Notes under the pieces: model-generated
What the model was told of the DNA's origin: nothing
Seen by the model: the letters and a program-made list of their open reading frames with translations, nothing else
Database searches by the model: none
Made by a program: the position numbers and the translations under genes
IMG/VR virus record: IMGVR_UViG_3300029267_003762
Span: 1-64,000 of that record
Strand: one strand, 5' to 3'
Origin: a virus
Length of the DNA stretch: 64,000 nt
Shown: positions 4,052 to 44,093 of the stretch, piece after piece
How the letters are laid out: each line of letters begins with the position of its first letter
Position numbering within the stretch: the first letter of the stretch is position 1

Positions 4052-4411
4052 GGGGGTGACTTGGTTTCGACGTGGATGTCGAAGCGTCTTCTGCGTGCAG
4101 GCAGAGGCACCGGAACTGCCTTGACCAAACTGGTGCAGCGTAGTTGCCAACGACAACAACGCACTCGCCGCCGTCGCTTGATGGTGGCCGTCGACGGGCG
4201 AGGTGTCTCGCGTAGCCCTGAGGCGTCAACCACTCGAGGCTGAGCCCTACCGGTGGTCTCCTGACGGACCTGAAGAAGGGCGAGATTCATTGGGAGATGA
4301 CTGGCTGGAAAGACAGCCGAACCCCGCTGGGAGGGTAGACCAGCTACGCACGTGAACGAGGAAGCCGTGTAGCTTTCGCGGACCGCAGTTCGATTCTGCG
4401 CACCTCCACCA
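4052..4411 (+). ncRNA. ssrA: tmRNA, tag peptide (A)ANDNNALAAVA
   Basis: 5' GGGGGTGAC..GGTTTCGAC; 3' T-arm CGCAG-TTCGATT-CTGCG and CACCTCC-ACCA; G3-U wobble in the acceptor stem; tag ORF 4146-4181. Confidence 0.95.
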
Positions 4412-5281: not shown

Positions 5282-5354
5282 GAGCCTGATACTCGAAGGA
5301 ACGAGTGCACGAGTTCTTGTCGTGTTTCTGCAGGTTCGAGTCCTGCCAGGCTCG
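5282..5354 (+). tRNA. tRNA-Arg(UCU)-like, atypical anticodon loop
   Basis: Acceptor GAGCCTG/CAGGCTC; D-stem CTCG/CGAG; anticodon stem CACGA/TCGTG with loop GTTCTTG; T-arm GCAGG-TTCGAGT-CCTGC. Confidence 0.7.
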
Positions 5355-5446
5355 CTGGGTACCTGGGTCCCCCTCCGTCGACGGAGGACAGGCCCGGGGT
5401 CGGAGGGATGGGCTCCTACTCAAGCCCGTGATGATGCTGCATGCGG

Positions 5447-5512
5447 ACCTGGGTCGCTCAATGGTAGGGTACGTGGGGACACGGTATGCGGGTTCGACTC
5501 CCGTCCCATCTC
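5447..5512 (+). pseudogene. degenerate tRNA-like element
   Basis: D-arm GCTCAATGGTAGGGT and T-arm GCGGG-TTCGACT-CCCGT intact; anticodon arm reduced to CGTG-GGGA-CACG; acceptor stem poorly paired. Confidence 0.5.
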
Positions 5513-5537
5513 ATTCAACGTGTGCAGCCTCTCTCAT

Positions 5538-5616
5538 AGCGGGATAGAGGAGTCTGGTCGTCCTCGCAGGGCTCATAACTCTGAGATCGGTGGTTCGAAC
5601 CCACCTCCCGCAACCA
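5538..5616 (+). tRNA. tRNA-Met(CAU), initiator-like
   Basis: Full cloverleaf; loop CTCATAA; 1:72 mismatch; GGG in the anticodon stem; encoded CCA. Confidence 0.92.
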
Positions 5617-5617
5617 G

Positions 5618-5809
5618 ATGAAAGCTCGAGCAGTAGAGGTGGTGATCACGGTGCTGTGCTTGGTGGCCGCCGGCGCGGTCGCCTACTTCATGCTTCGGCC
5701 TGGTCCATGTGACGGCGTGAAGTGCCCCGAGGGCACCTACCCCATGGAGCAAGGCGCCGGACTGTTCACCTCGAGGTGCTCGTGCATCGGGCATCCGAAG
5801 GATCCGTAG
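5618..5809 (+). CDS. small Cys-rich membrane-anchored protein
   Basis: N-terminal hydrophobic helix, then several Cys; stop overlaps the next tRNA. Confidence 0.4.
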   Translation: MKARAVEVVITVLCLVAAGAVAYFMLRPGPCDGVKCPEGTYPMEQGAGLFTSRCSCIGHPKDP

Positions 5810-5873
5810 CTCAATTGGTGAGAGCCCCCGGCTCATAACCGGGCTGTTGGCGGTTCGAACCCGCCCGGATCTA
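5800..5873 (+). tRNA. tRNA with CAU anticodon (Ile2-like or elongator Met)
   Basis: GGATCCG/CGGATCT acceptor; GCTC/GAGC D-stem; CCCGG-CTCATAA-CCGGG; GGCGG-TTCGAAC-CCGCC. Confidence 0.9.
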
Positions 5874-5875
5874 CT

Positions 5876-24273: not shown

Positions 24274-24468
24274 ATGAACGTCTGCCCAAAGTGCGGGGGC
24301 AAGGTCGTGCCCACCAGAAAGCCCGGTCGCACCATGCGGTACCGGGGCACTGAGTACCGCATCCCGGCCAACTACGTCATCCCCACGTGCAAGAAGTGCG
24401 GGGCGCAGTGGACTTCGACTGAGCAGCTGCTCGAGCTCGGCGCCTGGTTGGAGAAGAAGAATGGCTGA
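24274..24468 (+). CDS. YgiT/MqsA-type zinc-finger mini-protein
   Basis: M..CPKCGG...YRG....I......CKKCG..W. Confidence 0.55.
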   Translation: MNVCPKCGGKVVPTRKPGRTMRYRGTEYRIPANYVIPTCKKCGAQWTSTEQLLELGAWLEKKNG

Positions 24469-27400: not shown

Positions 27401-27556
27401 CCGCAGACGATGGGAACCGTCAGGGGTCCGAACAGCCAGAAGGTCCAGGATACGCAAAACTTGGTGCGAAAGCAGCTCGGGCTTCAGCCACAGAAGGTGC
27501 TGACGCCTGACGAGCTGTTCCAGCAGCAGCTCGCGGCCATGGGCGTGGCCGCGTAG
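24461..27556 (+). CDS. polyvalent virion protein: two GNAT domains, an inorganic-pyrophosphatase-like domain and low-complexity modules
   Basis: VDPEHRGKG motif A twice with FYE..GF / NE..GF; FQGL.IAIENRKGSVR.G...W.TKM..PYGYI...G.DG..ID.YIGP...DEDKV.LG. Confidence 0.8.
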   Translation: MAEQSISLGYASATLVPEGEDGVRIEKLWVDPEHRGKGDARRLLRKIKKDFADKKLWMRPRGFGDIPMGVDELRKFYESEGFKTMDKLDNMLFDKTAEVVELTTPGQRQEAASLERRVFSPGSKYQNPRPPSAKRFTSYGVYDDGKLVGVTRVDKDPLKAWAKDKEGLKALKVLGPEVWIEATAVDPEHRGKGVAKALRGHVQSQYSSVLTGTGPKSDPAMKHLNESQGFKPVLQRGKNMQYHWAKTAELAEDGEHKLQGRRNFQGLSIAIENRKGSVRKGTGKDGKEWRTKMKAPYGYIEAPANGRDGESIDAYIGPDKKAPDAFVVHQHKENGKGHDEDKVILGVRSIAEAKRLYLQHYDSPKFLGPVSRVPMERLKELVQQDKKISKLSSADEHLLLSVLGRAGVKVSSMQEPGVRKKDKTGPRGKKGKCEGPGPRLRQFGGVKLAAGDAVVSADDHPAVAVGKVLSNRLDKVNPNRPRYASLKDFILRRPDPRYDPSISREEQLRRHYSGKPPVRMRRVGQGIEHEIAPGVTAVMRIKTPGDEERGRQYAKKVMDDYYKESADPRERILLGILKQAGIPELKRLPTDVDLAKEKMLKAIERSKDRSWSHPQISIPHNKIDLERFGFEPTRIAIPMPWEKPLETSWRAGRLHAHKMGDRYMVHADAASPDSFYGKVKHLIEDVPPAVAKRIGMNKTAISAQPLGTLGKVLMQGIKSPGAARNVAKDVKMMGKVRAPSGALPHAPTTPINPSTLPSAKMPSGSVAPPPASGVRPRVQVQPQAAPAPAPAPAAAPAPPPSNVGQARPYADKGLTPEMRQRAIEMGWTPTARGGLSARVERPLSSNPRADIGRGEWSSRPSDVQTMRDVRGMPGQGTWRNTPRGQQAPLSGEALQRQQAQARADFAARQQAGAQARTMDLEGAASQRGAEAFREAPKDIHEAVMNHPLVAQHGMHPDSAYALLNDPRSLQKARYGRVSAAPQTMGTVRGPNSQKVQDTQNLVRKQLGLQPQKVLTPDELFQQQLAAMGVAA

Positions 27557-28036: not shown

Positions 28037-28597
28037 ATGAGCTCACGCACGTTCAACAAGCTGTTCCCCAAGAAGCCCCACCTCGTTCGCGGGCGGGGGA
28101 CCAGCGGAGAAGTACGAGACGTCCGCGAAGATGTCGACGAGGCGCTCGACAGGCTGGAGAGCGAGTCCGTCATCGACTTGCAGTTCTACTTCGATGGCAG
28201 CCTGGTCAACCCGACGGCCGGCGATCATGAGGGTCAGTACGGCATCTGCCACACCGCAGGCCCGGGACGGCCGGCTGGCTCCATCTGGTACGACGATGGC
28301 CTGACCGTCGCCGACGTCACCAAGAAGGGCTTGGTCGTCTCCCCCCGCGCCGACGTTGCCGGCACCGTGACGATGGACGCCAACGGCATCTATCAGGCTC
28401 TTTCGGCCACAGCTCCGTACTCCTGGACAGCCAAAGGGGGAGGGGGAGGGGTGCCCCCGACCGTTCCTTTGCGGCTGAGCACCTTGGACAGGCTTGCGCT
28501 TTCCCCGAGCGACGGGACGCTCGTCTACGACTTGGACGAGCGGAAACTCTACATCTACCAGTTCGACATCGATTGGCCCACGTGGTCGGAGGTTTGA
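28037..28597 (+). CDS. probable tail/virion structural protein
   Basis: R.AL.PSDGTLVYD.D...LYIY motif typical of fibre proteins. Confidence 0.55.
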   Translation: MSSRTFNKLFPKKPHLVRGRGTSGEVRDVREDVDEALDRLESESVIDLQFYFDGSLVNPTAGDHEGQYGICHTAGPGRPAGSIWYDDGLTVADVTKKGLVVSPRADVAGTVTMDANGIYQALSATAPYSWTAKGGGGGVPPTVPLRLSTLDRLALSPSDGTLVYDLDERKLYIYQFDIDWPTWSEV

Positions 28598-28598
28598 C

Positions 28599-28940
28599 AT
28601 GGGAACCATCACTACTCAGTACGCCGTAGGCGACTCGGTTTTCGTCCTCACTCAGGTTCGTGAGGAAGTTCCGGTGGACTGCGACATCTGCCGCTCCACC
28701 GGGAAGGTCACGTTGTCCGATCGGGAGTTCCGATGCCCGGCTTGTGGGGGACAGACTGTGAAGTCGGAGCAGTCCGAAGTGGTGGCCGTCTCGGCCACAG
28801 TGCTTCGGGTGCAAGCTTCCGCTTGTACGGACACGTGCTCCGTCAAGTACACGCTGAATGTTGGATACGGCGTCGTGCGTCGGGAAGAGACGGAAGTGTA
28901 CGCTTCCGAAGCTGCGGCGAGGGCCGCGTTGGGAGTCTGA
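28599..28940 (+). CDS. protein with DnaJ-like CxxCxxxG zinc finger
   Basis: CDICRSTG...CPACGG; GGAGGT RBS. Confidence 0.6.
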   Translation: MGTITTQYAVGDSVFVLTQVREEVPVDCDICRSTGKVTLSDREFRCPACGGQTVKSEQSEVVAVSATVLRVQASACTDTCSVKYTLNVGYGVVRREETEVYASEAAARAALGV

Positions 28941-28941
28941 C

Positions 28942-30288
28942 ATGGCTTACAACTGGGGAGGCGTTCTCAAGGCGCCCTCACCGTTCGACGGGCAAGTGTG
29001 GGTCGACCAGGACTTGCACGTGTGGCAGTGGAACTCGGCTAGCCAAGCATGGAACCGGGCACCGCACATCCAGATGCAACGCGCCTACTCTCGTTTTCAC
29101 CCGATCGGGGGCAGGCCGGTGGGTTACGACTTCCTGCCGGACGGGGCCGAGCCGGCTCCGAAAGCCGGCAGGCTCGGCCGTGTGTGGGACGAGGCGTACG
29201 AGCTGTCGTTCGTGGAGGTGCGAGGGGCGGCAAGCGGCACCTTGTACGGACGGCGAGCCCACATGTCTCGCGCCGAGATGCTGGCCTGGGTGGGCAGTGT
29301 CGTGCCTGCGCCCCCCAACTACACCGACAACATCGTCTTGACCGTGTACGAGGCGGTGGACACAGTCGCCGAGATGCCCAAGTGGCACGTGTGGAACGGT
29401 CTGTACTCTTCTTTCCGAGGAAGAGAGTGCTACTTCGGGGCGAACGGGCACGGGCGCTCTACCCTTCCCGCTCGAGCAGGCTACAGCCCCGACTTCGCCA
29501 CCTATCACGGGGTCGACTTGGAGTACTTCCTGCTTGCCCGGTTCTACGGCAAGGTCCCCGCGAGTCCCCAGCCGCGCGTGTGCTGGTCGACGAACGCACG
29601 GCGTGGCGTGTACAGGCACCCCAACAACACCACTGCCCGGGTGACTTGCGACGACAGCTCCAAGTACGTGTGGAACAACGCGACGGACTCGTGGGAACCC
29701 TCTCCTGTGGGGGACGAGTACGTGCACGACCCTACGGCCGGCAGCAACCCGCTGCTGTTGTGGCGATCCCCTGACAGTACCATCCTGCATCTCGAAAGCA
29801 TGACGAGCGCAGTGCGGGGGTTGAGCGGCATCCTCGGGGAGGGAGTCGAGGGTCGGGAGGCTGTTGTTGTGCGGGCCATGCGCAACAGGAGCAACAACAA
29901 CCTGAAGGCGTTCGTCATCAAGCCTTACGGGGTGACGGCCGCGGCCTGGAACATGACGGCCGGCAACGCGGATCTCTTGGCGCTGTCCGAGTACGACGGG
30001 TGCGCCACCGGCGGGGTCAACGCCTACAACCTGACTCGCAACGGTCTCGTGGAAGAGAGGGGTGAGCGGGGGCTTCGGTACAACCTGACGAGGATGTACA
30101 GCGCGCTGTACGTCGGGCACAGCTCCCCTTATCTGCTCACGCACGACACCCCGGTGGTACCTGAGGAGGTACGGTTCTACCTACGTGACCGGACCACAGG
30201 CGTGCGAAGCCCGACATCTCGCCAGTGCCTGTACTTGGAGAGGCGCCGGGCGACGGTGCCCGTCGCCATCATGTTCCGCCACAGTTGA
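28942..30288 (+). CDS. probable tail-associated protein
   Basis: P.SPFDGQVW.D...W.WN N-terminal fibre-like motif. Confidence 0.55.
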   Translation: MAYNWGGVLKAPSPFDGQVWVDQDLHVWQWNSASQAWNRAPHIQMQRAYSRFHPIGGRPVGYDFLPDGAEPAPKAGRLGRVWDEAYELSFVEVRGAASGTLYGRRAHMSRAEMLAWVGSVVPAPPNYTDNIVLTVYEAVDTVAEMPKWHVWNGLYSSFRGRECYFGANGHGRSTLPARAGYSPDFATYHGVDLEYFLLARFYGKVPASPQPRVCWSTNARRGVYRHPNNTTARVTCDDSSKYVWNNATDSWEPSPVGDEYVHDPTAGSNPLLLWRSPDSTILHLESMTSAVRGLSGILGEGVEGREAVVVRAMRNRSNNNLKAFVIKPYGVTAAAWNMTAGNADLLALSEYDGCATGGVNAYNLTRNGLVEERGERGLRYNLTRMYSALYVGHSSPYLLTHDTPVVPEEVRFYLRDRTTGVRSPTSRQCLYLERRRATVPVAIMFRHS

Positions 30289-30734: not shown

Positions 30735-30807
30735 CGCTCCGTGGCCAAGTGGCAAGGCACCGTCCCTAATGACGGCGGGATCGGAGGTTCGAATCCTCCC
30801 GGAGCGG
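30735..30807 (+). tRNA. tRNA-like element (Gln-like body) with 6-nt anticodon loop CCTAAT
   Basis: CGCTCCG/CGGAGCG acceptor; GCC-AAGTGGCAA-GGC; CCGTC/GACGG; GGAGG-TTCGAAT-CCTCC. Confidence 0.65.
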
Positions 30808-30870
30808 CAGGCCGAGCAGCGGGTAAGAGCGTGTACGGGAAAGCTGCTAGGACGGCACGCCAGCACTCAA

Positions 30871-30949
30871 GGACGGGTAGCTCAATCGGTAGAGCGTCGA
30901 TATGACCAATGGTCCCGCTATGATGGGGGTTCGATCCCTCCCCCGTCCG
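30871..30949 (+). tRNA. tRNA-like element lacking a canonical anticodon arm
   Basis: GGACGGG/CCCGTCC acceptor; GCTC-AATCGGTA-GAGC; GGGGG-TTCGATC-CCTCC. Confidence 0.6.
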
Positions 30950-31138
30950 CTACAGCGAAGCACGCACGGCGGCGTCCTTGGCCACCAGCAGCATCTGCAG
31001 AGCGAACGTGCGCTGGTTGCAAGCGGGCAGCTCCTCGAAGAGCTTCTTGGCGAGCTCGCCGAACGGCTTGCTCACCTTCTGGAGCTTCTCGGGCAGGTGC
31101 TCGTAGTCGAAGTACAGCATCAGTTCCGCGTCCATCAT
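30950..31138 (-). CDS. small helical-hairpin phage protein (possible Acb2/Tad1-like fold)
   Basis: F.YEHLP..LQ.VSKPF..LA......LP......AL..LL.AKDAAVRA. Confidence 0.6.
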   Translation of the reverse strand: MMDAELMLYFDYEHLPEKLQKVSKPFGELAKKLFEELPACNQRTFALQMLLVAKDAAVRASL

Positions 31139-35493: not shown

Positions 35494-37173
35494 ATGGAGT
35501 CGCTAGGAAAAAGGGCGCTGGATGTGGCCTTCAAGGAGCTTGGGGTGGCGGAGGATCCGCCGCGCTCGAACACTGGGCCGCGGATCCGTGAGTACCTCGA
35601 GCCGTGTGTGCGGGGCGACCGCAACGTGAAGCTCGGGCTCAAGGCCTCGAACTGGTGCTTCACAGGAGACACCGAGATTCTGACGGAAGAGGGGTGGATG
35701 CGTTTGGATGACGTGTCCGAAGACGTTCAGGTAGCGCAGGTACATCCAAGGTCGATGCGCATCTCCCTCACCAGGACGGTCGCGGTCATCCACAAGGCGC
35801 ACAAGGGCGCTCTGGCGGTCATGAGTCGGCGATCTCTGCGTTTGGTGTCCGACCCGGAGCATAGGTACTTCGGCAAGTGGTGGGTGAGCGCTAGGAGTGG
35901 AAGAAAGGACGTACCGGAGGTGGAGCTGCGCCCCGTAGCAGACCTGACGGGTGCAGCAACGAAGCTGGTCGTTCCGCCCAGCCGCGGTCACTTCGAGTAC
36001 GAAAGTGGGTGGAGCAGGCGTGACTTGAAGCTGTTGGGAGCGTTCTTGGCAGACGGCAGCATCGTCAACGGGAAGTTGCAGTTTCAGGTCAGCAGGGCGG
36101 ACAAGATAGCGATGTTGCACGAGCTGGAACCTGACCGAGTCTGGGAAGCTCCCATGCCGTACGGGCCTAGGTCGAAGGAGGCTCTGACCAGTTTCTTCTT
36201 CGAGATGCCGTCGGAGTTTGCGGAGGCGTTCGATAAGTACAAAGTGCTGTCCCCCCGATTCATGTGGAACCTTCACAGGGAGCAGGCTGCTCTCGTGCTC
36301 GACACATGGGCGTCCTATGACGGCAGTGCTCGAGGCGGGTCCATTCGGCTGTCGCAGGCGTCCAAGGACAGGATCGACACGGCCCAGATGCTGGCCGTAC
36401 TGGCTGGGTATTCCGGTCAGACACAGAAGCCGAAACAGCTCGGTGAGTTCGGTTCGACCATGCACTTTCTGACGTACGTCAAAGGCCCGCGTAACACGGA
36501 GATCCTCGACAAGAACGTCCGCTTGACCGAAGAGCAAGAAGTAGACTTGTACTGCGTTCAGGTCCCCAGCGGGCTGATCATCGTCCGCCCTTCTGGGTAC
36601 GGTAGGGCGCTGGTGGTAGGCAACTGCATGGCGTTCTCGAGCTGGTGCATGACCGAGGCCCTCGAGGACGGCGAGGTCCCCCCTCACGGCTACCGTGCGG
36701 GGGTCGTCGAGGCTGTGGCTGACGTGCGCAGCCCGCACGCCAAGTTCTCGGGCGTTTGGCACCCGGTCGAGACGGTAAGAAAGAAGCTCTGGACGCCGTT
36801 CGAAGGAGACCTGGCCATCTGGGACCGGTCGACCACAGATCCGAACACGTCTTGGTGGCGGCACGTGAACCGGGTCGTGAAGTACGACGCCGGTGTCGGC
36901 GAGTTCGACACCATCGGCGGCAACGAACGGGACCAGGTGCGGGTCGCCGCACACCACGTGTCCGAGATCAAGCTGCTCGGCTTCATCGCCTACCCGCAGC
37001 CCGAGGACAAGCCCGAGCCCAAGCAGATCGACGCGCTGACGCACGCCAACCTGCTCGGACTCGTGGCCCGTACCATCGACGGAATGTTGCGCGACTCGCA
37101 CACCGAGATGATGGAGTCGCACCACATGGACGACGACGACGACGACGACTACGACGACGACTACGACGACTAG
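35494..37173 (+). CDS. CHAP-domain cell-wall hydrolase interrupted by an intein
   Basis: ELGV.E.P..SN.GP.I..Y; spliced junction W|CMAFSSWC; GDL.IW...HV..V...TIGGN. Confidence 0.85.
   Translation: MESLGKRALDVAFKELGVAEDPPRSNTGPRIREYLEPCVRGDRNVKLGLKASNWCFTGDTEILTEEGWMRLDDVSEDVQVAQVHPRSMRISLTRTVAVIHKAHKGALAVMSRRSLRLVSDPEHRYFGKWWVSARSGRKDVPEVELRPVADLTGAATKLVVPPSRGHFEYESGWSRRDLKLLGAFLADGSIVNGKLQFQVSRADKIAMLHELEPDRVWEAPMPYGPRSKEALTSFFFEMPSEFAEAFDKYKVLSPRFMWNLHREQAALVLDTWASYDGSARGGSIRLSQASKDRIDTAQMLAVLAGYSGQTQKPKQLGEFGSTMHFLTYVKGPRNTEILDKNVRLTEEQEVDLYCVQVPSGLIIVRPSGYGRALVVGNCMAFSSWCMTEALEDGEVPPHGYRAGVVEAVADVRSPHAKFSGVWHPVETVRKKLWTPFEGDLAIWDRSTTDPNTSWWRHVNRVVKYDAGVGEFDTIGGNERDQVRVAAHHVSEIKLLGFIAYPQPEDKPEPKQIDALTHANLLGLVARTIDGMLRDSHTEMMESHHMDDDDDDDYDDDYDD
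35656..36624 (+). mobile_element. intein (323 aa) with LAGLIDADG-type endonuclease
   Basis: N-term CFTGDTEILT; LLGAFLADGS; LYCVQVPSG..IVR; C-term VVGN followed by extein Cys. Confidence 0.92.
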
Positions 37174-37175
37174 CC

Positions 37176-38435
37176 CTACCTCTGAGTCGCCCTCTTGATG
37201 ATGTCGCTGAACTTCCTGACGTCCGGCGACTCCATCTTCGGATCCCTGATCACTGCGGTCAGGGCGTTCTCGAGCTCGGTGATGCGCTTCGAGCGCGCCT
37301 CGTTGCTCTCCCGAAGTTGCCTGATCGTCTCGATGTTGTTGGACAGCTCTGTTGCGTTGGCGTTGAGGGACTCGTGGAGCTTCTCGATGCGCCCGTCCAT
37401 CTCTGTGACGGTCGTCTGCAACTTCGTGTTCTTCTCCTTGAGCTTGCCGATACCCCTGCGGATCCTTGAGAACGCCTGCTCAACGGACTCTTCCTCGTCG
37501 GGAAGCGCGAGCTGGGACTGCACTCTCATGAGGTGGGCCTCGAGCTCGTTGCGGATGACGTCGACGACCGGCGTGAGCCTCAAGAGGCCCGTGCCGGTAC
37601 CGCCAAGCGAGTGGTACACCTCCTCCAGTGTGCCGGCGATGCGCTCGTAGGCTTCCACGGCGCTCTCATCCGGCCTGCTCTTCCCGATGGCGTCGCCAAT
37701 GGACACCAGTTGCGACATGAGCTTGCCGCTTGCCACCTTCTGGTTCTCGAGGTCTTGCACGACTCGTGCAGCGGCCTTGTCGACGAACTCGTCCCTGTGG
37801 GCCCCCAGGGTTGCGCGCGTGCGCCTCAGCACGTCGTGGTTCCATGAGTCGGTGTTCGGGTCCACCTCGATTGGCCTCTTCGCGAGCTCGTTGGCCGCCT
37901 CCATCGGGCCCTTGAGGTACTTCTCCAGCAGCCTGAAGTTGCCGTCGAGGTGGTCGCATGGAACGATGCCGCAGTGCTTGACCAGCGTTCGGACCTCGTA
38001 GTTGAGCGCTTCGATGTGCCCGTTGAGCAGTTGCGACAGTCCGGCGGCGCTGGTGACTGGGAGCTCTTGAGGCTCCTTGCCGACGTGCTTGAGCCCGTTG
38101 GTGATCGAGATGAGCGAGTCCTCCAGGGCCCCAACGAGCTTCTCATGCGTCTCCCTGCCCGACATCTTCTTGAGCTCCTCGATCTTCTCGACGAGCTGCC
38201 TCTCGTTGGAGTTCGGTTGGAGCCCAGCTGCGACGTTGACACGCTGGATGGCGGCGGAGAGCGTCGTGTGCATGGCTTGGTAGAGCCGAACGTGGTCTTT
38301 GAGGAGGTCCACTTGCTCAACGAGCTCATCGACCCGTGCGAGCTTTGCCCGCACGTACGCCCCGGTGACATCGACTTCGATGAAGTCCTTGTCGCCTTTG
38401 AGGGCCTCGAAGCCCTCTTTCGTTTTCTCTGTCAC
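37176..38435 (-). CDS. long coiled-coil protein directly downstream of the RAMP-like gene
   Basis: Heptad pattern throughout; GGAGGAAG RBS; 11 nt from the upstream stop. Confidence 0.7.
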   Translation of the reverse strand: MTEKTKEGFEALKGDKDFIEVDVTGAYVRAKLARVDELVEQVDLLKDHVRLYQAMHTTLSAAIQRVNVAAGLQPNSNERQLVEKIEELKKMSGRETHEKLVGALEDSLISITNGLKHVGKEPQELPVTSAAGLSQLLNGHIEALNYEVRTLVKHCGIVPCDHLDGNFRLLEKYLKGPMEAANELAKRPIEVDPNTDSWNHDVLRRTRATLGAHRDEFVDKAAARVVQDLENQKVASGKLMSQLVSIGDAIGKSRPDESAVEAYERIAGTLEEVYHSLGGTGTGLLRLTPVVDVIRNELEAHLMRVQSQLALPDEEESVEQAFSRIRRGIGKLKEKNTKLQTTVTEMDGRIEKLHESLNANATELSNNIETIRQLRESNEARSKRITELENALTAVIRDPKMESPDVRKFSDIIKRATQR

Positions 38436-38446
38436 TGCTTCCTCCT

Positions 38447-39340
38447 TCAGCTGACGCGGCCAGCAGTCTGCGTGTCATTCGAGGTGATGACGTCCTTGCG
38501 GGCGACCTTGCGTGCGGCCCTGCCCCTCGCAGGTGCCTTCGTAGTCTTCTTGGCCGCCGTCTTCTTCTCCTTGGGTTCTTTGCCGGCGACGCCGTCCTGC
38601 ACCTTCTCGACGTTGACGAGGCGGAACTTGCCCTCGCCGATGGAGCGGTCGGCCCACAGCCCATTCTCCTGGGCCAGGGTGAGGATGCGGACGAGCTCCT
38701 CCTCCTTGATGTGGCGCGTGTCGGCGGGGTGCGTGGGGGCGACCCACCAGTCGAACGTGCAGTACACGTCTGTGAGGTAGTCGGTCTTCTTGATCGCGGT
38801 CCTCGGGCCCTGCATGGTCATGACCTGGATCGCCCGCTCCTCGCAGCCGTCCGGCTCGGTCACGTACATGCGGCCGGCAGTGGTGATGCGGTAGAACAGA
38901 AGCTGGTTGCCGTGGTCCAGCCCCTCGGGCTTGATCTCGGTGCCGTGCTTGAGGTGTTCGGTCTTCGGGCGGTCCTGCAGGATCCTGTGCACCGAGACCG
39001 TCTCTTTGATGCACGCCTTCGGGCAGCGGGCGAACATGTACATCTGGCCCTCGGAGTTCCTGGGAAAGCCGATCCAGGAGCGCTCCTCCTTCTCCTGCCC
39101 CTCGATGGCCTCGAGGTTCTCTTCGTCCTGCTGCTCGGTGAGCTCGTCACGCTCTTTCACCTTCGTCTTGAGCTCGGCGTAGCTCTTCTTCGGCTTCTTC
39201 GCCTGCTGGTCGCCGGCGATGACGAGGGGGTTCAGGGGGTGGCCGCCGATGATGCGGTTCGGCGCCTCGACGACGATCGTGATGCGGTAGACGTCGTAGA
39301 ACTGCTTGGGGCTGGTGTCGTACTTGTCGAGTAGGTTCAT
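38447..39340 (-). CDS. stand-alone Cas7/RAMP-like protein
   Basis: N-terminal strand YRITI...IIGGHP; F.R...G.......KACIKE helix; thumb-like EERAIQVMTMQGPRTAIKKTD; C-terminal G-rich loop GLWADRSIGEGKF; basic tail; GAAGGAG RBS. Confidence 0.75.
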   Translation of the reverse strand: MNLLDKYDTSPKQFYDVYRITIVVEAPNRIIGGHPLNPLVIAGDQQAKKPKKSYAELKTKVKERDELTEQQDEENLEAIEGQEKEERSWIGFPRNSEGQMYMFARCPKACIKETVSVHRILQDRPKTEHLKHGTEIKPEGLDHGNQLLFYRITTAGRMYVTEPDGCEERAIQVMTMQGPRTAIKKTDYLTDVYCTFDWWVAPTHPADTRHIKEEELVRILTLAQENGLWADRSIGEGKFRLVNVEKVQDGVAGKEPKEKKTAAKKTTKAPARGRAARKVARKDVITSNDTQTAGRVS

Positions 39341-39394
39341 CTTCTATCTCCTTCAGGTAGTGATTGGTTCAAGGAAGAAGTAAGGAAGCTGCTT

Positions 39395-40448
39395 GGACAG
39401 GCTAGGCCTGTCGCCAGGGTTGCCGTGACCAGGCGCGTCGATCGGCAAGGGGAGGTGTGGCAAGTCACTGGCACCGGTTCAGGCGGGTAGGTCGATTGGT
39501 TTGGTCAGAAGTGGTGAGGCATGTCGCACGGGTGGGATGGAGCGGGCACGGTTCGTCGGGCGGCAAGGTGAGGTGCGAGAAGGCACGTCGGCGGGCACGA
39601 GAAGGTCCGGCGCAGTGCGTCGACCGAGTGGGCATGACTTGGCTGATCGATAGGGACGGCCCGACCAGGCTCGTCGGACGAGAAGGAATGGCGCGGTATG
39701 TCGTACGGCATGATGTGGGCTTGGCGGGATTGGGGTGAATAGTCGACCAGTTCGGATGAATCAGGCACGTCGAAGAGTCCGGTAAGGCATGGCCCGTCGT
39801 GTGTCCTGGTCTGCCTTGGCATGTCCTGCGATGGGGCGTGCATCGGTTCGTCGCAAAGCTGGGCGTGGTTCGGTTCGTCGACCGGAGTGATTCGTTGAGG
39901 AACGGATTGTCGATCGTGTCTGGTCGGGACCGGTTTGGGCCGTCGCATGAACCTGAACTGGGAAGGCATGTCGACTGGTCCGGCGAGGTAAGGTACGTCG
40001 GATGGGCCGGATGAGTGGGGCACAGCTCGTCGCGTGAGTCGTAAGACACGAACTGGTGAGGCATGGGTTGTCGAGCGGGCCGGTACGACTTTAGCACGGA
40101 ACGTCGAATGGCCAAGCAAGGTACGGTTTGTCGCATGGGAAGGCTGGGAACGGATCGATGGTGGTCAGTCGCGTGGCGTGGTGCGGGTCGGATCGGATGG
40201 TTCAGCCCTGGCCAGTCGAAGGATCGGGAGTGGTGGGGCCTGTCGGCTGGGACGGGTCGGAAGGGTTTGGTGAGTCGCCTGGGCTGGCATGTGCGGGTCC
40301 GGAGTGTCAGACGGTTTGGCGTGGTCAGTCCCCTAGTTCGATACGGAGTGTCGGACGGGTGGACCGGGAGTGGCCCGTCGGATGGACTGGAGAGGAGTGG
40401 GCGGGTTCGGAGTGTCGGTAGGGTCGGTGCGCCGCAGCGAGGCATGTC
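39395..40448. repeat. array of 34 units GTCGNNN+(GGNNN)n with 5-nt periodicity; candidate guide-RNA array
   Basis: Unit starts at 39410, 39437, 39464, 39491, 39523, 39555, 39587, 39619 ... 40377, 40414, terminal GTC at 40446; 30 of 34 units are exactly 7+5n nt. Confidence 0.9.
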
Positions 40449-40755
40449 AAAAGGGCGGCTCCTCGTCACCGTCTACCACAGGCAGGTCCCGGAGGTAGTC
40501 ATCGAGCTCGAGGGGCCATGGTGGCAATCCGCTACCGCATCGGCCGCTGCCGTGGCGGTGCGGGAAAGGGTAAGCATCACAGCCGCAGACTCCGTACTTG
40601 TCGAACTGCACGGTCCTCATCCACTTGCAGAGAGGGCGGCCCGGTCGGCACTCCGGCATGTGCACGACCACGGTCCTGTTCACCACGTAGCACCTCCCGC
40701 CGCCTGCCTCGAGCTCGCGGGTGGTTCGCGCCCTCTTGTGAACGAGCTTACTCAT
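40447..40755 (-). CDS. small Cys/His-rich protein
   Basis: C.CDAYPFPHR.GSG.C motif; its TGA overlaps the last GTC of the array. Confidence 0.6.
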   Translation of the reverse strand: MSKLVHKRARTTRELEAGGGRCYVVNRTVVVHMPECRPGRPLCKWMRTVQFDKYGVCGCDAYPFPHRHGSGRCGSGLPPWPLELDDYLRDLPVVDGDEEPPF

Positions 40756-41002
40756 TCTTCGTTGCGAGGTTCATCTTGCTGATTGGGATGTTGAGGTACT
40801 CACGTACCTTCTCCGATTCCTCGTGCGAAAGGGCCCGCGGAACGCCCTCGCACAGGTGCTTGCCGATGGCGTAGTGCCTGTCGACGTCGTTCCTCAACAG
40901 CCGTCCGCATCGCGGGCAATAGTACATCGGACGGCTGTCCTTGCGGGCAGCGTTGTACGCCATCCGAAGGTGATTCCTCGGATACACGGACAGGTTGAGC
41001 AT
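40748..41002 (-). CDS. small zinc-finger protein
   Basis: CPRC..H..H.C; AAAGGAGG RBS. Confidence 0.6.
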   Translation of the reverse strand: MLNLSVYPRNHLRMAYNAARKDSRPMYYCPRCGRLLRNDVDRHYAIGKHLCEGVPRALSHEESEKVREYLNIPISKMNLATKNE

Positions 41003-41176
41003 GGTTCCTCCTTTCGTGAGGTAGGGGCTGAGAGCGCTGCTCTTATGCCCCCAGTCTTCTTCTTTTTGCGCAGAAACAGAACAGAGGTTGACCGGACGGG
41101 CAAGACGACCTACGCTGCGCTCAATCCAACCGTACCGAAGGCCTTCTCAGGAAGGCTTTTTGCGTAGGAGAGCACC

Positions 41177-42049
41177 ATGTTGAGCAAGTTCGCTGAGATG
41201 ATCTTCACTCTTCTTCTGGCTTTCGGTGGCGAGAAGTACGCAGGCAACAGTCCGTACAGCTTCGAGATCGCTCAGGGCTGTGGGACGAACCAGGGCTCGC
41301 CGGCGTGCGCGCTCACGCCTCAATGCGAGGTCAAGGCTTGGAGGTGTGCGCCGCCGCGCTGGTCTCCGGCCCGGGAGGCTTGGGTCCTTCCTGAGAGCAG
41401 CGCGAAGGCCAAGGAGCGGTACCACAAGATCGCCGAGTCGATCGCCAGGGTGTCGTTCTGGCATGCCAGGTGCCGGGATGAATGGGGAACCGTGAGGGAG
41501 GACTGCACGCCCAGCGGCTGGCCCGAGGGGCCCGAAAGCCTGGCGCGCGTCGCGGCCACAACAGCCTTGTGGGAGAGCGGCCTGCGGGAGGACATCATGT
41601 TCGGGCACGCCCCGATGGGCCGCGGCGCCATGGGGGAGACGTGCCTCGCCCAGATCATGCCCAACCAGATCCGTCAGTTCGCCTCGTGGATACCCCAGGA
41701 TGAGCTCGACACCTACGACAAGCTGCCGCTCGGCAAGGAGCGGGCCGAGTGGGACGAGAAGTGGGCGCAGCGGATGCTCGGCGACTCCCCACAAGAACTC
41801 GATCGGTGCTTCGACGTCGCGCTGCGCGCACTCGCTCGGGCCCGAGGGGCCTGCGTCGGTCGACAGGGCGGCGGATGGGCCTACAAGATGTGGGCGATGT
41901 ACGGCACGGGCAACCGCTGCTCGAGCTTCGGCATCCACGACGACTTCGCCGCCAAGCGCGCCAGCACCTATCACCGGATGAAGAGCTACAAGCCCTCCCC
42001 TGGCGCCGCCCCGCAGACCCCCGTTCCGGAGAAAACCGCTTCAAACTAG
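41177..42049 (+). CDS. secreted Cys-rich protein, possible lysozyme/transglycosylase fold
   Basis: N-terminal signal-like helix; A.WESG.......G...G..CLAQI. Confidence 0.55.
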   Translation: MLSKFAEMIFTLLLAFGGEKYAGNSPYSFEIAQGCGTNQGSPACALTPQCEVKAWRCAPPRWSPAREAWVLPESSAKAKERYHKIAESIARVSFWHARCRDEWGTVREDCTPSGWPEGPESLARVAATTALWESGLREDIMFGHAPMGRGAMGETCLAQIMPNQIRQFASWIPQDELDTYDKLPLGKERAEWDEKWAQRMLGDSPQELDRCFDVALRALARARGACVGRQGGGWAYKMWAMYGTGNRCSSFGIHDDFAAKRASTYHRMKSYKPSPGAAPQTPVPEKTASN

Positions 42050-42083: not shown

Positions 42084-42395
42084 TTACCTGTGGCGAGGCC
42101 ACAGGCAGTCGTAGTCGTTTCTGACTACCTGTTGGCAGGTCTCCGGCAGATCCTCGAACCGTATCTTCTTGCCCAGATGCCTGTATCTTGGTCTGTCGAT
42201 CTGCACGTCACTGAACCCGTGCATGCCGATGCCTTGTGGATGGGTTGGGTATGGTGACATTCCCAAGTACATGAACTGGCCGCCCACACGCTTTCGCGTG
42301 AAGACTACCGTGTACCTGTCAGCAGTGGTGCCGCCATTGTCGTAGCAGCGCACGTATCTCGGGCTCACAGCTCCAATCTCCTCGAGGCTTTTCAT
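42084..42395 (-). CDS. conserved phage hypothetical protein
   Basis: YDNGG.T.DRYTVV...HPQG...HLGK.I.F.DLP. Confidence 0.7.
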   Translation of the reverse strand: MKSLEEIGAVSPRYVRCYDNGGTTADRYTVVFTRKRVGGQFMYLGMSPYPTHPQGIGMHGFSDVQIDRPRYRHLGKKIRFEDLPETCQQVVRNDYDCLWPRHR

Positions 42396-42925
42396 GTGGT
42401 CAGCTCCTCATAGAGCTTGTAGATTCGATGGATGTTGCGGGCGATCATGGGTCTTCCGCGTTTGAACTGCAGTCTTGAGGTCTTGTACCCGAGCTTCTCT
42501 GCGAGGAAAGCCTCGGTGTAACCCTCGTTTTTGAGCAGTTCGAGCTTTCGCAGGGCCCTGGTGGAGCCCATGATGGTCACTTCGTTGGGAACGTCCGCAG
42601 TCACGGCGAGAATGGCCTCTTCGGTCTTCTTGCGAATCTGCTTCTTCGTGCCGTTGCGGATGCGTCGAAGTGTGGTGTCACCGACTCCGGAGATGTCCTG
42701 GATGGTCCGTCGGCCGATGCCCTTCTTCGAGAGTTTGAGCATGTGCGCCCGGGCCTTGTCGGCCGGCACGAGGCCATTCCAGTCCCCGCCACGGTTGTAC
42801 TTCTGCCTCATGCGCGCGTAGGAACGATTGGCCTCGCTGCACGGCTCACAGCGACACCCCGTGACGTAGCGCGCCCGCGTCCCGTGCTCAAACCGCTCGG
42901 GACCGGGCATGTCCTTGGGCCTCAT
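42392..42925 (-). CDS. HTH DNA-binding protein with HGT...GCRC..C N-terminus
   Basis: HGTRARYVTGCRCEPC; GIGRRTIQDISGVGDTTLRRI HTH. Confidence 0.7.
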   Translation of the reverse strand: MRPKDMPGPERFEHGTRARYVTGCRCEPCSEANRSYARMRQKYNRGGDWNGLVPADKARAHMLKLSKKGIGRRTIQDISGVGDTTLRRIRNGTKKQIRKKTEEAILAVTADVPNEVTIMGSTRALRKLELLKNEGYTEAFLAEKLGYKTSRLQFKRGRPMIARNIHRIYKLYEELTT

Positions 42926-43656
42926 ACCTCGTAGACGTCGCTGTGGACCGGGCGGCGAAGATGCCTATAGACCACGATGACTCGGTCCAGATGTACCTCA
43001 ATGCGGTCGACCGGAGCCACGACGGAGTCGATGATGGACAACACGAGCTCGTAGTGTTTGGAATTGGGGGGCAGAGGTTCGTTGTTCAGCATCCACGAGT
43101 TCGGGTTTTGGAGGGTCGTGGCGACGTCCCCAGGCACGATGACCTGGAAGCCCTTGATGGAGGCCACGTAGGAGACCACTCGAGGGTCGCGGGTGACTGG
43201 CTGGAACTCGTTCTGGTGGTCGAGCACCTCCTGGATCTGCGGCGGTTGCCAGTTCGGCGGCTTGAGCCACTTGCCATCCTCGCGCTTGGTGGCGCCGGGG
43301 CCGAACTTGGCCATGTTGGCCCGATGGACCTCGGCGGCGATGCGCGGGCCGTGGATGCCGAACGTCTGCCTGGCGCCTTCTACGACGTAGTCGATGTCCG
43401 CCAGCGCGTCGGCCACGAGGCAGACGTCCCATTCGTCGTCGGGCGCCTCTTCGAGCAGCTCCTCGACGGAGTCGCGCACGTTCGTCACGAGGTGCGGCGC
43501 CCCGCCCATGTAGCAGGCGTCCAGCAGCTCCGTGCACTCTTCGCAGATGAGGCGCAGGCGCAGGATGATCTCGTCCTTGGTAGGCTTGCGGGGGCTGTCG
43601 TAGCAGGGCTGATCAGCCTTCTTCATGAACTCGCGTACTTGCTGCCTGATGTTCAC
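42922..43656 (-). CDS. MazG-like (PRA-PH family) nucleoside triphosphate pyrophosphohydrolase
   Basis: V.EF; LR.RLI.EE..EL; DALADIDYV..G; EVH.ANMAK; REDGK.LKP..W.PP. Confidence 0.85.
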   Translation of the reverse strand: MNIRQQVREFMKKADQPCYDSPRKPTKDEIILRLRLICEECTELLDACYMGGAPHLVTNVRDSVEELLEEAPDDEWDVCLVADALADIDYVVEGARQTFGIHGPRIAAEVHRANMAKFGPGATKREDGKWLKPPNWQPPQIQEVLDHQNEFQPVTRDPRVVSYVASIKGFQVIVPGDVATTLQNPNSWMLNNEPLPPNSKHYELVLSIIDSVVAPVDRIEVHLDRVIVVYRHLRRPVHSDVYEV

Positions 43657-44093
43657 TTCTGTCTCCTTTCCGTTGGAAGGTCGTCCAAGATGGCCTGGAT
43701 GTAGTCGCTCTTGAACTTCTCCCTCTTTCTGTTCGTGTAGTCGGCGTCGTTGAGCTTCCTCGCGATCTCCTTGAGCGAGTAGTGCCCAAGCATCCTTTTG
43801 ATGAGAACGATGATGTTCTGCTCGTACGGGTGGCTGACGAGCATGGTTCCGTGGTTGCTTTCTCGGTACCGATAGCCGTACGGAGGCTTGAACCTGACGG
43901 GGGCCTTCGTTCCGCCGTACCACCCGACGTACAGCTTCTTGTGCCACTCGTTGCCAGGCGGGTAGATGTCCAGCAGCTCGAACAAGGCGAGCTCGGCATC
44001 TACCTTGTTGTGGAACGTCCTTGGGAAGTACGGTCGGCGGTTGTGCATCACCGCCCAGCCCGGCCCAACGACGTCATCCTCTTTGGGAGGCAT
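43653..44093 (-). CDS. protein with serine-recombinase DNA-binding domain only
   Basis: PPYGYR...P.EQ.I......SL.EIA..LN.......R...F; no catalytic resolvase domain. Confidence 0.6.
   Translation of the reverse strand: MPPKEDDVVGPGWAVMHNRRPYFPRTFHNKVDAELALFELLDIYPPGNEWHKKLYVGWYGGTKAPVRFKPPYGYRYRESNHGTMLVSHPYEQNIIVLIKRMLGHYSLKEIARKLNDADYTNRKREKFKSDYIQAILDDLPTERRQK

What the first reader, a model, noticed from the sequence alone, without database searches (positions are those of the whole stretch)
38447..40448. Lone Cas7/RAMP-like gene next to a 5-nt-periodic non-CRISPR array: candidate programmable RNA-guided system
Seen: the 297-aa minus-strand ORF has RAMP hallmarks (first strand YRITI..IIGGHP, KACIKE helix, thumb-like hairpin, G-rich loop GLWADRSIGEGKF). 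The 1.05 kb directly upstream is an array of 34 units, each GTCGNNN plus 3-8 pentamers. Most pentamers start GG, most others start GA or AG, and the last three bases are variable. Examples: GTCGATT-GGTTT-GGTCA-GAAGT-GGTGA-GGCAT and GTCGACT-GGTCC-GGCGA-GGTAA-GGTAC. No cas1, cas2, cas5, cas6 or nuclease gene is recognisable in the window. Established: Cas7 RAMPs polymerise on guide RNA at a fixed nucleotide step. Inference: each unit is a small guide in which the constant bases are gripped by one protein subunit per pentamer, while the variable bases spell a gapped target. The likely use is silencing rival phage or host DNA/RNA without cutting. From memory and unverified, phage RAMP proteins with GGY-NN repeat RNAs (VIPR) were recently reported; this locus may be a GTCG-punctuated variant.
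Basis: partly seen in the sequence, partly recalled or inferred. Interest (0 to 1): 0.96.

Follow-up and report, generated by a model that had tools for sequence, protein, structure and literature searches.

The report
Phage VIPR system, C-type punctuated array
A large uncultured phage carries a VIPR system (a CRISPR-like RNA-guided DNA silencer first described in 2026), built from one small Cas7-like protein and about 34-38 very short guide units, and comparison with relatives suggests its guide RNA uses C-C where the published systems use G-G.

Summary
Window 39410-40446 holds 34 GTCG-punctuated units of five-base repeats. The adjacent 297-aa gene (38447-39340, minus strand) folds as a Cas7-type RAMP.

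The kind is already published. VIPR systems (Vipr protein plus pentamer-repeat vrRNAs) were described in four 2026 bioRxiv preprints. This scan has noted VIPR-like loci on other DNA before (401 notes, at least 288 genomes).

The locus belongs to one well-supported Vipr clade of 44 proteins. There:
- units are short (3-6 pentamers);
- a 7-8 nt mark (NNN(N)CGAC on the gene's strand) separates them;
- the constant pair is always C-C on the gene's strand, which is G-G on the opposite strand.

The sister clades carry T-G arrays with NNNNCGAG marks on the gene's strand, in exactly the same register. Position-specific base use correlates with theirs in the sense reading (r = 0.84) but not the antisense reading (r = -0.53). 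The arrays also abut the flanking genes with no room for their own promoters.

I therefore favour (about 0.6) a sense-strand, C-based guide RNA over the antisense GGNNN reading (about 0.3).

No targets were found. RNA binding, RNA processing and DNA silencing are inferred by homology only.

The parts
38447..39340 (-). vipr gene: a 297-aa minimal RAMP (Cas7-like). It has an RRM core, a helical insertion (about residues 38-87), a beta-hairpin thumb, the G-loop GLWADRSIGEGKF (227-239) and a basic disordered C-terminal tail (254-297).
   Evidence: Codon bias GC1-3 is 0.59/0.40/0.93. There is no Pfam or PHROG hit. The AF2 model has mean pLDDT 62.7 with a core above 80. The best Foldseek PDB matches listed (59 at E <= 0.001) are all Cas7-type subunits, best E 5.4e-6. 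VIA-align gives Z 12.2 to Csm3 6ae2_B, and ranks 1-37 are all RAMPs. The clade profile against the SUSP1 Vipr family gives hhalign prob 75.7%, E 2.4e-5, 134 columns.
39341..39409 (-). 69-nt spacer between the array and the vipr start codon. It holds the RBS GAAGGAGA and a 6-bp hairpin (ACAGGC-CTA-GCCTGT) at the array edge.
   Evidence: Read directly from the sequence. No sigma-70-like promoter was found on either strand in 38300-41200.
39410..40446 (.). Guide array of 34 exact marks (about 38 units if degenerate marks are counted). On the gene's (-) strand each unit is CGAC + (NNNCC) x 4-5 + NNN. On the + strand it is GTCG-NNN-(GGNNN)n. The functional strand is unresolved; the sense (-) strand is favoured.
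   Evidence: Statistics are. The array is unique in the genome. It is not coding: the 334-aa ORF across it has GC1-3 of 0.58/0.65/0.67. No Rfam family matches. Neither strand folds better than shuffles (z +0.78 and -0.67).
37176..38435 (-). 419-aa gene that starts 12 nt after the vipr stop codon. It sits where a vap accessory gene would sit, but its function is unknown (helical or coiled-coil).
   Evidence: Only sub-threshold coiled-coil Pfam hits. There is one weak PHROG of unknown function. Atlas and PDB searches were uninformative. No homologue lies next to vipr in any fetched relative.
40447..41002 (-). Two small upstream genes in the same orientation (102 aa at 40447-40755; 84 aa at 40748-41002 with a weak zinc-ribbon hit). 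The stop codon of the 102-aa gene abuts the array. They show that the array lies inside a sense-strand gene block.
   Evidence: ORFs and codon bias are. Pfam Zn_ribbon_9 scores 18.5 bits, below its cutoff. Neither gene is conserved in relatives.

Best explanation
This is a VIPR system, meaning a Vipr-family RAMP protein plus a pentamer-repeat guide array, in an uncultured phage. It belongs to a distinct clade.

Proposed mechanism, inferred by homology with the SUSP1 system:
1. The array is transcribed with the vipr operon, as the 5' leader of the vipr mRNA.
2. One Vipr protomer binds each pentamer through its constant pair.
3. The variable bases are displayed to pair non-contiguously with double-stranded DNA of a competitor element or the host.
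4. Binding silences transcription without cutting.

Specific to this clade:
- The RNA is most likely the gene-sense, C-rich strand, with NNNCC pentamers.
- A 7-8 nt mark ending in CGAC divides it into about 34-38 mini-guides of 4-5 pentamers each. That is about one helical turn of the published filament.
- The mark would act either as a cleavage site or as a filament stop.

Shown here: the RAMP fold, the array statistics, conservation of the gene-array pair, clade structure and the strand-specific grammar. Inferred: transcription strand, RNA binding, processing, the pairing rule and the targets.
For: VIPR identity:
- RAMP fold.
- Profile-profile link to the experimentally studied SUSP1 Vipr family: prob 75.7%, E 2.4e-5. 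Shared short motifs are visible by eye (PLNPL, ACIK, G-loop).
- A profile of 5 close homologues finds 1228 representatives.
- Period-5 arrays lie next to the gene in 27 loci of its own clade and about 38 loci of sister clades.
- No Cas1 and no CRISPR array.
- Phage context: terminase, major head protein, and an IMG/VR virus record.

Sense-strand C-type reading:
1. All 27 typed loci of the clade have C-C on the gene strand, whether the array is upstream or downstream. Sister clades always have G on the gene strand.
2. Logos aligned on CGAC (this clade) and CGAG (sister clades) are in identical register on the sense strand. The constant pair sits at -6,-5 and +7,+8 in both. The antisense reading is off by one.
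3. Composition of the three variable positions matches in the sense reading. Squared distance is 0.018 sense against 0.138 antisense, and sense was closer in all 2000 bootstraps. Position-specific deviations give r = 0.84 (95% 0.57-0.94) sense against -0.53 antisense.
4. The 3' constant base is the better conserved in both (G 0.97 / C 0.94, against T 0.80 / C 0.77). This matches the published rule that the last G is the invariant one.
5. Arrays abut the flanking sense genes with no promoter room. In L010 the array runs into the RBS. In L027 it starts right after the stop codon. In the window the upstream stop codon abuts the array.
Against: - Every VIPR guide confirmed by RNA sequencing is G-based. 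The repeat variants the discovery preprint lists (YNNGG, NNNGG, YNNNG, NNNNG) all end in G, and NNNGG could be this very clade read on the other strand. A later preprint does list cores without a terminal G (GAC/NN, CAC/NN).
- The residues that discriminate the C clade from the G clades are only conservative swaps: KE/KD in helix 1, DR/ER in the G-loop, and F/Y. That is a small change for a G-to-C switch of specificity.
- Dinucleotides at + strand positions 4-5 look slightly more like codon positions 1-2 than positions 3-4 do (0.042 nat per pentamer). This fits the canonical geometry on the G strand. A unit-coherence test points the other way.
- For the window alone, the composition test is weak (r 0.19 sense, -0.37 antisense; 84 pentamers).
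- No promoter, terminator or ribozyme fixes the polarity.
- No target was found under any rule.
Confidence: 0.6

Rival explanations
1. Same VIPR system, but the guide RNA is the + strand (antisense to vipr). The units would be GTCG-NNN-(GGNNN)n, which is the NNNGG repeat variant already listed in the discovery preprint. They would be transcribed from an antisense promoter inside or beside the vipr gene and read by the canonical G-G recognition.
For: - All guides confirmed by RNA sequencing are G-based. The discovery preprint's listed variants all end in G, and NNNGG is among them.
- Putative base-contacting motifs are only conservatively changed between the C clade and the G clades.
- The positions 4-5 dinucleotides are the more codon-like, including TA depletion.
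- On this strand, variable pentamers are followed by the special GTCG element. That resembles the repeats-then-3'-tail order of SUSP1 vrRNAs.
Against: - It needs an antisense promoter at each array in more than 20 diverse loci where arrays abut coding sequence. None was detected in the window.
- The complementary sense RNA must also be made, as the vipr leader, which would give double-stranded RNA.
- The punctuation register is off by one relative to sister clades.
- Variable-position composition anticorrelates with the sister clades (r -0.53).
- The 5' G would be the better conserved one, opposite to the family trend.
Confidence: 0.3
2. A Vipr-like RAMP with a pentamer RNA that does something other than DNA silencing. 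Examples are RNA targeting or a decoy or sponge function. Under this reading the published 1-nt-skip DNA rule does not apply.
For: - Three variable positions per pentamer instead of two.
- Very short units (4-5 pentamers), which give little specificity under the NN rule.
- No target was found.
- No recognisable DNA-binding vap gene.
Against: - Homology to the Vipr family.
- The same gene-array architecture as the sister clades.
- The target searches had very little power: 92 kb of the phage's own genome plus 474 kb of fetched loci.
Confidence: 0.07
3. The array is not an RNA gene. It would be either a proline/arginine-rich protein gene (the 334-aa ORF 39465-40469, minus strand) or a DNA-level repeat such as iterons or a packaging or replication site.
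For: A 334-aa ORF is open across the array on the minus strand.
Against: - The periodicity is 5, not 3.
- The ORF has no codon-position bias (GC1-3 0.58/0.65/0.67, against 0.59/0.40/0.93 for vipr). It stays open simply because the strand is 43% C.
- The array co-occurs with a RAMP gene in dozens of otherwise unrelated loci. That points to an RNA partner rather than a genome-maintenance site.
Confidence: 0.03

Closest known systems
Type II VIPR of Escherichia phage SUSP1 and the Pseudomonas fulva prophage (bioRxiv 10.64898/2026.04.26.720920, .720927 and 10.64898/2026.10.15.759431)
   Same: - A single small RAMP protein with a helical insertion, thumb and G-loop.
- Adjacent non-coding pentamer-repeat arrays.
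- Phage-encoded, with no cas genes.
- Profile-profile similarity: prob 75.7%, E 2.4e-5.
   Different: SUSP1:
- four separate vrRNAs of about 100 nt;
- each has its own sigma-70 promoter, 9-16 GGY-NN repeats and a roughly 60-nt 3' pseudoknot tail;
- they lie on the gene's strand.

Here:
- one 1.04-kb array of about 34-38 units of 4-5 pentamers;
- units are separated only by a 7-nt mark, with no tail and no per-unit promoter;
- there is no conserved Y;
- the G-G pair lies on the strand opposite the gene.

The protein is 297 aa against 195 aa and is not detectable by simple sequence search.
Other VIPR types in the discovery preprint: alternative repeats (NNNGG, YNNNG, NNNNG) and 'staggered' arrays of abutting vrRNAs (fig. 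S17-S18 legends)
   Same: Arrays of directly abutting short vrRNAs and an NNNGG-type repeat are mentioned there. This clade may be what is meant. If so, the architecture is known in outline.
   Different: - Only the legends are readable here, so identity could not be checked.
- The text gives no CGAC/GTCG mark, no unit lengths and no strand relative to vipr.
- The preprint confirms the hammerhead-interspersed and single-vrRNA architectures by RNA sequencing (types III and V), not the staggered arrays.
Non-canonical VIPR arrays found with a genomic language model (bioRxiv 10.64898/2026.10.21.760802): cores GAC/NN, CAC/NN, WGT/NN, TGH/NN
   Same: That work shows that Vipr-like proteins pair with constant cores other than GGY. 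The sister clades seen here (NNgTG with CGAG marks) plausibly match its TGH/NN or WGT/NN classes.
   Different: No C-C core and no punctuated short units are named in the readable text. Its non-canonical arrays are described as about 10 repeats long, not 4-5.
Class 1 CRISPR backbone subunits (Cas7 family: Csm3, Cmr4, type VII Cas7)
   Same: Best structural matches: VIA Z 12.2 to Csm3, 11.5 to Cmr4 and 10.7 to type VII Cas7. All are RAMPs that polymerise along a guide RNA at a fixed step.
   Different: - Sequence identity is only 7-13%.
- No CRISPR repeats or spacers, no Cas1 hit in the genome and no large subunit recognised among the neighbouring ORFs scanned; cas2, cas5 and cas6 were not searched.
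- The step is 5 nt rather than 6.
- Cas7 does not read a constant dinucleotide in every step.

Membership tests
VIPR system | Vipr protein is a minimal single-RRM RAMP with a G-loop and thumb | tested here: met
   The AF2 model has beta1 at 16-24, helix 1 at 105-118, beta-hairpins at 146-200 and the G-loop at 227-239 between H213-226 and E240-248. The best Foldseek PDB matches listed (59 at E <= 0.001) are all Cas7-type. VIA Z is 12.2 and ranks 1-37 are all RAMPs.
VIPR system | Homology to an experimentally validated Vipr (SUSP1) | tested here: met
   Support is moderate. hhalign of the clade profile A3 against the SUSP1-family profile A5 gives prob 75.7%, E 2.4e-5 over 134 columns from helix 1 to the G-loop. 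A single-sequence comparison gave only 11.7%. A small profile found nothing in the SUSP1 genome.
VIPR system | Adjacent non-coding tandem pentanucleotide repeats with constant and hypervariable positions | tested here: met
   Constant pair frequencies are 0.81/0.89 in the window and 0.77/0.94 in the clade. The other three positions are near-uniform.
VIPR system | Canonical GGY/NN consensus | tested here: not met
   The position after GG is Y in only 0.57 (window) and 0.52 (clade, n = 1260) of pentamers. The preprint allows 'a related consensus' such as NNNGG, so this does not exclude membership of VIPR at large.
VIPR system | Minimal locus without cas1/cas2 or a CRISPR array; mostly viral | tested here: met
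   No Cas1 (PF01867) in the 92-kb genome, with controls positive. No CRISPR-like tandem array. The record is an IMG/VR virus with terminase and a major head protein. Cas2 was not searched separately.
VIPR system | A vap accessory gene with a DNA-interaction domain | tested here: inconclusive
   The translationally coupled 419-aa gene has no informative match. It is not conserved beside vipr in relatives.
VIPR system | vrRNA is expressed and co-purifies with Vipr | not testable with these tools
   This needs RNA sequencing and pull-down.
VIPR system | Guides match DNA of competing elements under the 1-nt-skip rule | tested here: inconclusive
   There was no excess of matches over shuffled guides in the phage's own genome or in 474 kb of fetched loci, under 11 rule variants. 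The databases were far too small, and the host is unknown.
VIPR type II (SUSP1-like) | vrRNAs of 9-16 repeats with a conserved structured 3' tail, on the gene strand | tested here: not met
   Units have 4-5 pentamers, the mark is 7 nt, and there is no tail or structure. G-G lies on the opposite strand.
CRISPR-Cas class 1 | CRISPR repeat-spacer array plus cas1/cas2 and a multi-subunit effector | tested here: not met
   (no CRISPR-like array, no Cas1). Only one RAMP gene is present in the genome. cas2 and other effector subunits were not searched.

The most novel reading that the evidence does not exclude
A whole clade of Vipr proteins (44 of 86 sampled) has switched the constant letters of its guide RNA from G to C. 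These would be NNNCC pentamers with NNN(N)CGAC marks, transcribed as the leader or trailer of the vipr mRNA and divided into mini-guides about one filament turn long. That would be a second, C-based dialect of the non-contiguous code. It would also mean this clade's arrays are mis-oriented if they are read as NNNGG.
Probability: 0.55. Interest if true: 0.75.

Novelty: new variant of a known kind. Interest (0 to 1): 0.55.

Why it matters
VIPR is a months-old discovery. It is proposed both as the ancestor of CRISPR effectors and as a very small programmable DNA binder. Only the G-G-Y type has been studied biochemically.

If this clade really reads C-C, three things follow:
- The constant-base pocket of Vipr is evolvable, so orthogonal Vipr/guide pairs could exist in nature and be used side by side.
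- Arrays can be packed as dozens of 27-32 nt guides without promoters or tails.
- Computational guide callers that scan only for G-based units would assign the wrong strand, and therefore the wrong variable positions, to a large share of natural systems.

If instead the antisense reading is right, the clade shows an obligatory antisense guide array inside an operon. That would also be unusual.

Either way, one strand-specific RNA-sequencing experiment settles the question.

Tried and rejected
- Pfam, PHROGs and PDB sequence searches of the protein gave nothing.
- megablast of the locus against phage genomes gave nothing. tblastn gave only a 26% hit in Microcystis phage Mae-JY09.
The contigs of the two closest homologues (P0002 75%, P0003 63% identity) could therefore not be fetched, and no orthologous array could be aligned.
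- Scans of genome contigs and metagenome contigs found no relative closer than 36-45% identity.
- Promoter/terminator scans, my own terminator search across 15 relatives' loci plus the window, and Rfam searches (including a look for hammerheads in 40 loci) gave no polarity marker.
- Target searches with 11 rule variants found no signal. The variants used all three variable bases or either pair, with skips of 0-3. They were run against the phage's own genome and against 474 kb of fetched loci. The one excess, three bases with skip 2, probably reflects array-to-array similarity, because that pattern has period 5 and arrays in several loci were left unmasked; the hits themselves were not inspected.
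- Codon-likeness and unit-coherence tests for which two positions carry the code gave opposite answers.
- Reading units as degenerate peptides gave nothing recognisable. With 4-6 codons per unit it could not be significant anyway.
- The coding reading of the array is rejected on period and codon bias.
- The host could not be identified. No kin are drawn for virus records, and the terminase is only 27% identical to those of Bacillus phages.
Full report
OBSERVATION

The array is real. The + strand of 39410-40450 holds 34 GTCG. Dinucleotide shuffles give 19.5 +/- 3.4, and the rest of the window has 7.6 per kb. GTCG spacings are quantised at 27 (x9), 32 (x7) and 54 (x3). GG-GG pairs at lag 5 number 66, against 27.4 +/- 4.9 in shuffles.

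In the 18 units of exact length 7+5n, 80 of 84 pentamers start GG, GA or AG. The 16 strongest period-5 windows of the whole 92,246-bp genome all lie here.

Tandem Repeats Finder does not see the array, because only two of every five bases are constant. It also finds no CRISPR-like array in the window.

The 334-aa ORF that is open across the array has no codon-position bias. Its GC1-3 is 0.58/0.65/0.67, against 0.59/0.40/0.93 for the neighbouring gene. It is open only because that strand is 43% C.

PROTEIN

The 297-aa product of 38447-39340 (minus strand) has no Pfam, PHROG or PDB sequence match.

An AlphaFold2 model was built from five homologues. Its mean pLDDT is 62.7, with a core above 80. 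The low-confidence parts are a helical insertion at about 38-87 and a basic tail at 254-297.

Against the PDB, the best Foldseek matches listed (59 have E <= 0.001) are all Cas7-type backbone subunits (Cmr4, Csm3, type VII Cas7), best E 5.4e-6. An aligner run that does not depend on Foldseek, against 48,161 chains, gives Z 12.2 to Csm3. RAMPs fill ranks 1-37.

A profile of the five homologues finds 1228 cluster representatives at E <= 1e-3, so this is a large family.

LITERATURE

Four 2026 preprints are relevant:
- 10.64898/2026.04.26.720920 describes Vipr, a minimal RAMP mostly in phages. It has no cas genes and is flanked by vrRNAs of 9-16 YNNGG repeats. The NN pairs read double-stranded DNA with one skipped base per pentamer and silence competing elements. 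The preprint defines seven types. It lists alternative repeats (NNNGG, YNNNG, NNNNG), 'staggered' arrays and hammerhead-interspersed arrays.
- 10.64898/2026.04.26.720927 gives structures. One protomer binds per repeat. The two G are read by the beta-sheet, G-loop and thumb. The filament has five to six protomers per turn.
- 10.64898/2026.10.21.760802 reports non-canonical cores (GAC/NN, CAC/NN, WGT/NN, TGH/NN).
- 10.64898/2026.10.15.759431 studies competition between SUSP1 VIPR and a resident phage satellite.

I located the reference locus in phage SUSP1, KT454805.2. The vipr gene is at 28474-29061 (minus strand). The GGYNN vrRNAs lie on the same strand as vipr, and the one upstream of vipr has a clear sigma-70-type promoter and a tail.

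Profile-profile comparison of my clade (25 sequences) with the SUSP1 family (39 sequences) gives probability 75.7%, E 2.4e-5, over 134 columns from helix 1 to the G-loop. Short motifs are shared by eye: PLNPL, ACIK, and the G-loops GLWADRS... and GVGDWRP....

With the fold, the array, the lack of Cas1 and the viral context, I file the locus as a VIPR system. The scan has met such loci many times on other DNA.

RELATIVES

In a tree of 86 distinct Vipr-like proteins, all 27 loci typed as 'C on the gene strand' fall in one clade. The clade has 44 rows and SH-aLRT support of 99. It also holds 16 untyped rows and one weak contrary call on a 1.8-kb contig.

The other clades hold 37 loci typed 'G on the gene strand'. 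The minimum number of changes on the tree is 2.

The window sits in a 12-member subclade with support of 100. It is a long branch there, with at most 42% identity to the others.

In the C clade the arrays lie upstream, downstream or on both sides of the gene. The mark CGAC is on the gene strand, and spacings are mostly 23, 28, 33 or 38. That corresponds to an 8-nt mark, NNNNCGAC. The window is a one-base-shorter variant with spacings of 27, 32 and 37.

The G clades carry NNgTG pentamers with the mark NNNNCGAG, also on the gene strand. They have 4-8 pentamers per unit.

WHICH STRAND IS THE RNA?

This is the main open point. Five observations favour the gene-sense, C-rich strand.

1. Orientation is strictly conserved in both groups, wherever the array sits relative to the gene.
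2. Arrays are flush with their neighbours, which leaves no room for an antisense promoter.
   - In L010 the last pentamer runs into the vipr RBS.
   - In L027 the array starts right after the vipr stop codon and ends at the next gene's start.
   - In the window the upstream gene's stop codon (40447) abuts the array, and only 69 nt with an RBS separate the array from the vipr ATG.
   - The sense RNA is therefore probably made in any case, as part of the operon transcript.
3. Logos aligned on CGAC and CGAG are in exactly the same register on the sense strand. The constant pair is at -6,-5 and +7,+8 in both. The CGA core is unchanged, while every base in the period-5 frame changes G to C. The antisense reading is off by one on both sides.
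4. Base use at the three variable positions is nearly the same in the sense reading.
   - Position n1 is A .31/.33, C .17/.18, G .29/.29, T .22/.20 (G-type/C-type).
   - Position n3 has G at .42/.34.
   - The counts are 2323 G-type and 983 C-type pentamers.
   - Squared distance is 0.018 sense against 0.138 antisense, and sense was closer in all 2000 bootstraps over arrays.
   - After removing overall strand skew, position-specific deviations correlate at r = 0.84 (95% 0.57-0.94) sense and -0.53 antisense.
5. The 3' base of the constant pair is the better conserved in both groups. The repeat variants listed in the discovery preprint likewise all keep the last G.

Five points count against the sense reading.
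- Every VIPR guide confirmed by RNA sequencing is G-based. The discovery preprint's listed variants all end in G, and its NNNGG class may be this very clade read on the other strand.
- The columns that separate the C clade from the G clades are only conservative swaps: KE/KD in helix 1, DR/ER in the G-loop, and F/Y.
- One weak codon-likeness test favours the canonical geometry on the G strand. A unit-coherence test favours the other pair of positions.
- The window alone has too few pentamers to decide.
- No promoter, terminator, ribozyme or Rfam family fixes the polarity.

Neither strand folds better than shuffles. That fits a protein-coated single strand in either reading.

I put the sense C-type reading at about 0.6 and the antisense GGNNN reading at about 0.3.

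CODE AND TARGETS

All three non-constant positions are near-uniform. There is no GGY signature. Whether two or three bases per pentamer carry information is not settled.

A unit of 4-5 pentamers would specify 8-10 bases under the NN rule, or 12-15 bases if all three are read. It spans about one turn of the published filament. That last comparison is my inference.

I found no self-targets. I also found no excess of matches in 474 kb of fetched viral loci. These databases are far too small, and the host is unknown.

CONTEXT

The record is an IMG/VR virus estimated at about 50% complete. An identical protein occurs on a contig of 177,713 bp. The phage is remote from cultured phages.

The 419-aa gene coupled to vipr sits where a vap gene would be. 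It has no informative match and is not conserved beside vipr elsewhere. I found no accessory gene.

VERDICT

This is a genuine VIPR system and therefore a known kind. It belongs to a large clade whose punctuated mini-guide arrays, and probably C-based constant letters, are not described in the text I could read. The claim about strand and code is computational. One strand-specific RNA-sequencing experiment would decide it.

Noticed in passing
window 4052-4411 (+), 5282-5874 (+), 30735-30950 (+): The phage encodes a tmRNA (tag peptide ANDNNALAAVA) and several tRNAs (Arg-tct, two Met-cat, Ile-aat, Val-gac). The tag could help to guess the host.
   Followed up: no
L034/L038 3610-3960; L022 940-1230; L035 3600-3800; L036 3290-3760: Sister-clade VIPR arrays use NNNTG or NNNYG pentamers. 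They are punctuated every 4-8 pentamers by an 8-nt mark ending in CGAG (for example CCTTCGAG or ACGGCGAG), and they start right after the vipr stop codon. Punctuated arrays are thus a general feature of this branch of the family, not of the window alone.
   Followed up: partly
L080 2560-2860 and L083 1400-1680: These C-type arrays have the mark AGGCTGAC (TGAC instead of CGAC). An AT-rich spacer of about 90 nt, holding three TTTTAAC repeats, follows before vipr.
   Followed up: no
L010 2380-2990 (sense strand): In this subclade the 8-nt mark reads [AG][AT][TC]GCGAC. That resembles the last 8 nt of the Thermus thermophilus CRISPR repeat, ATTGCGAC (repeat quoted in PMC12396201). From memory, those 8 nt form the 5' handle of mature crRNA. 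The clade-wide logo does not keep the ATTG part, so this may be coincidence.
   Followed up: partly
window 39526-40073, first pentamer after CGAC on the minus strand: [A/G]TGCC is over-represented: about 12 of 84 pentamers have TG at the second and third positions, often in the first pentamer after the mark. On the + strand this is GGCAY just before GTCG. The mark may therefore extend into the neighbouring pentamer.
   Followed up: no
window 42922-43947 (-) and 42392-42925 (-): A MazG-like nucleotide pyrophosphohydrolase (PF01503, 33.8 bits; phrog_671, 1e-26) sits beside an HTH/HNH-like protein (phrog_1590, 1e-23), a few kb upstream in the same gene block.
   Followed up: no
window 35494-37173 (+), with a (GAC)14 tract at 37129-37170: A 559-aa plus-strand gene is embedded among minus-strand genes. 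It has a weak CHAP-domain hit and ends in a run of about 14 Asp codons.
   Followed up: no
window 24461-27556 (+): A 1031-aa virion-associated protein combines acetyltransferase-like hits with a domain shared with minor head, DarB-like and endolysin PHROGs.
   Followed up: no
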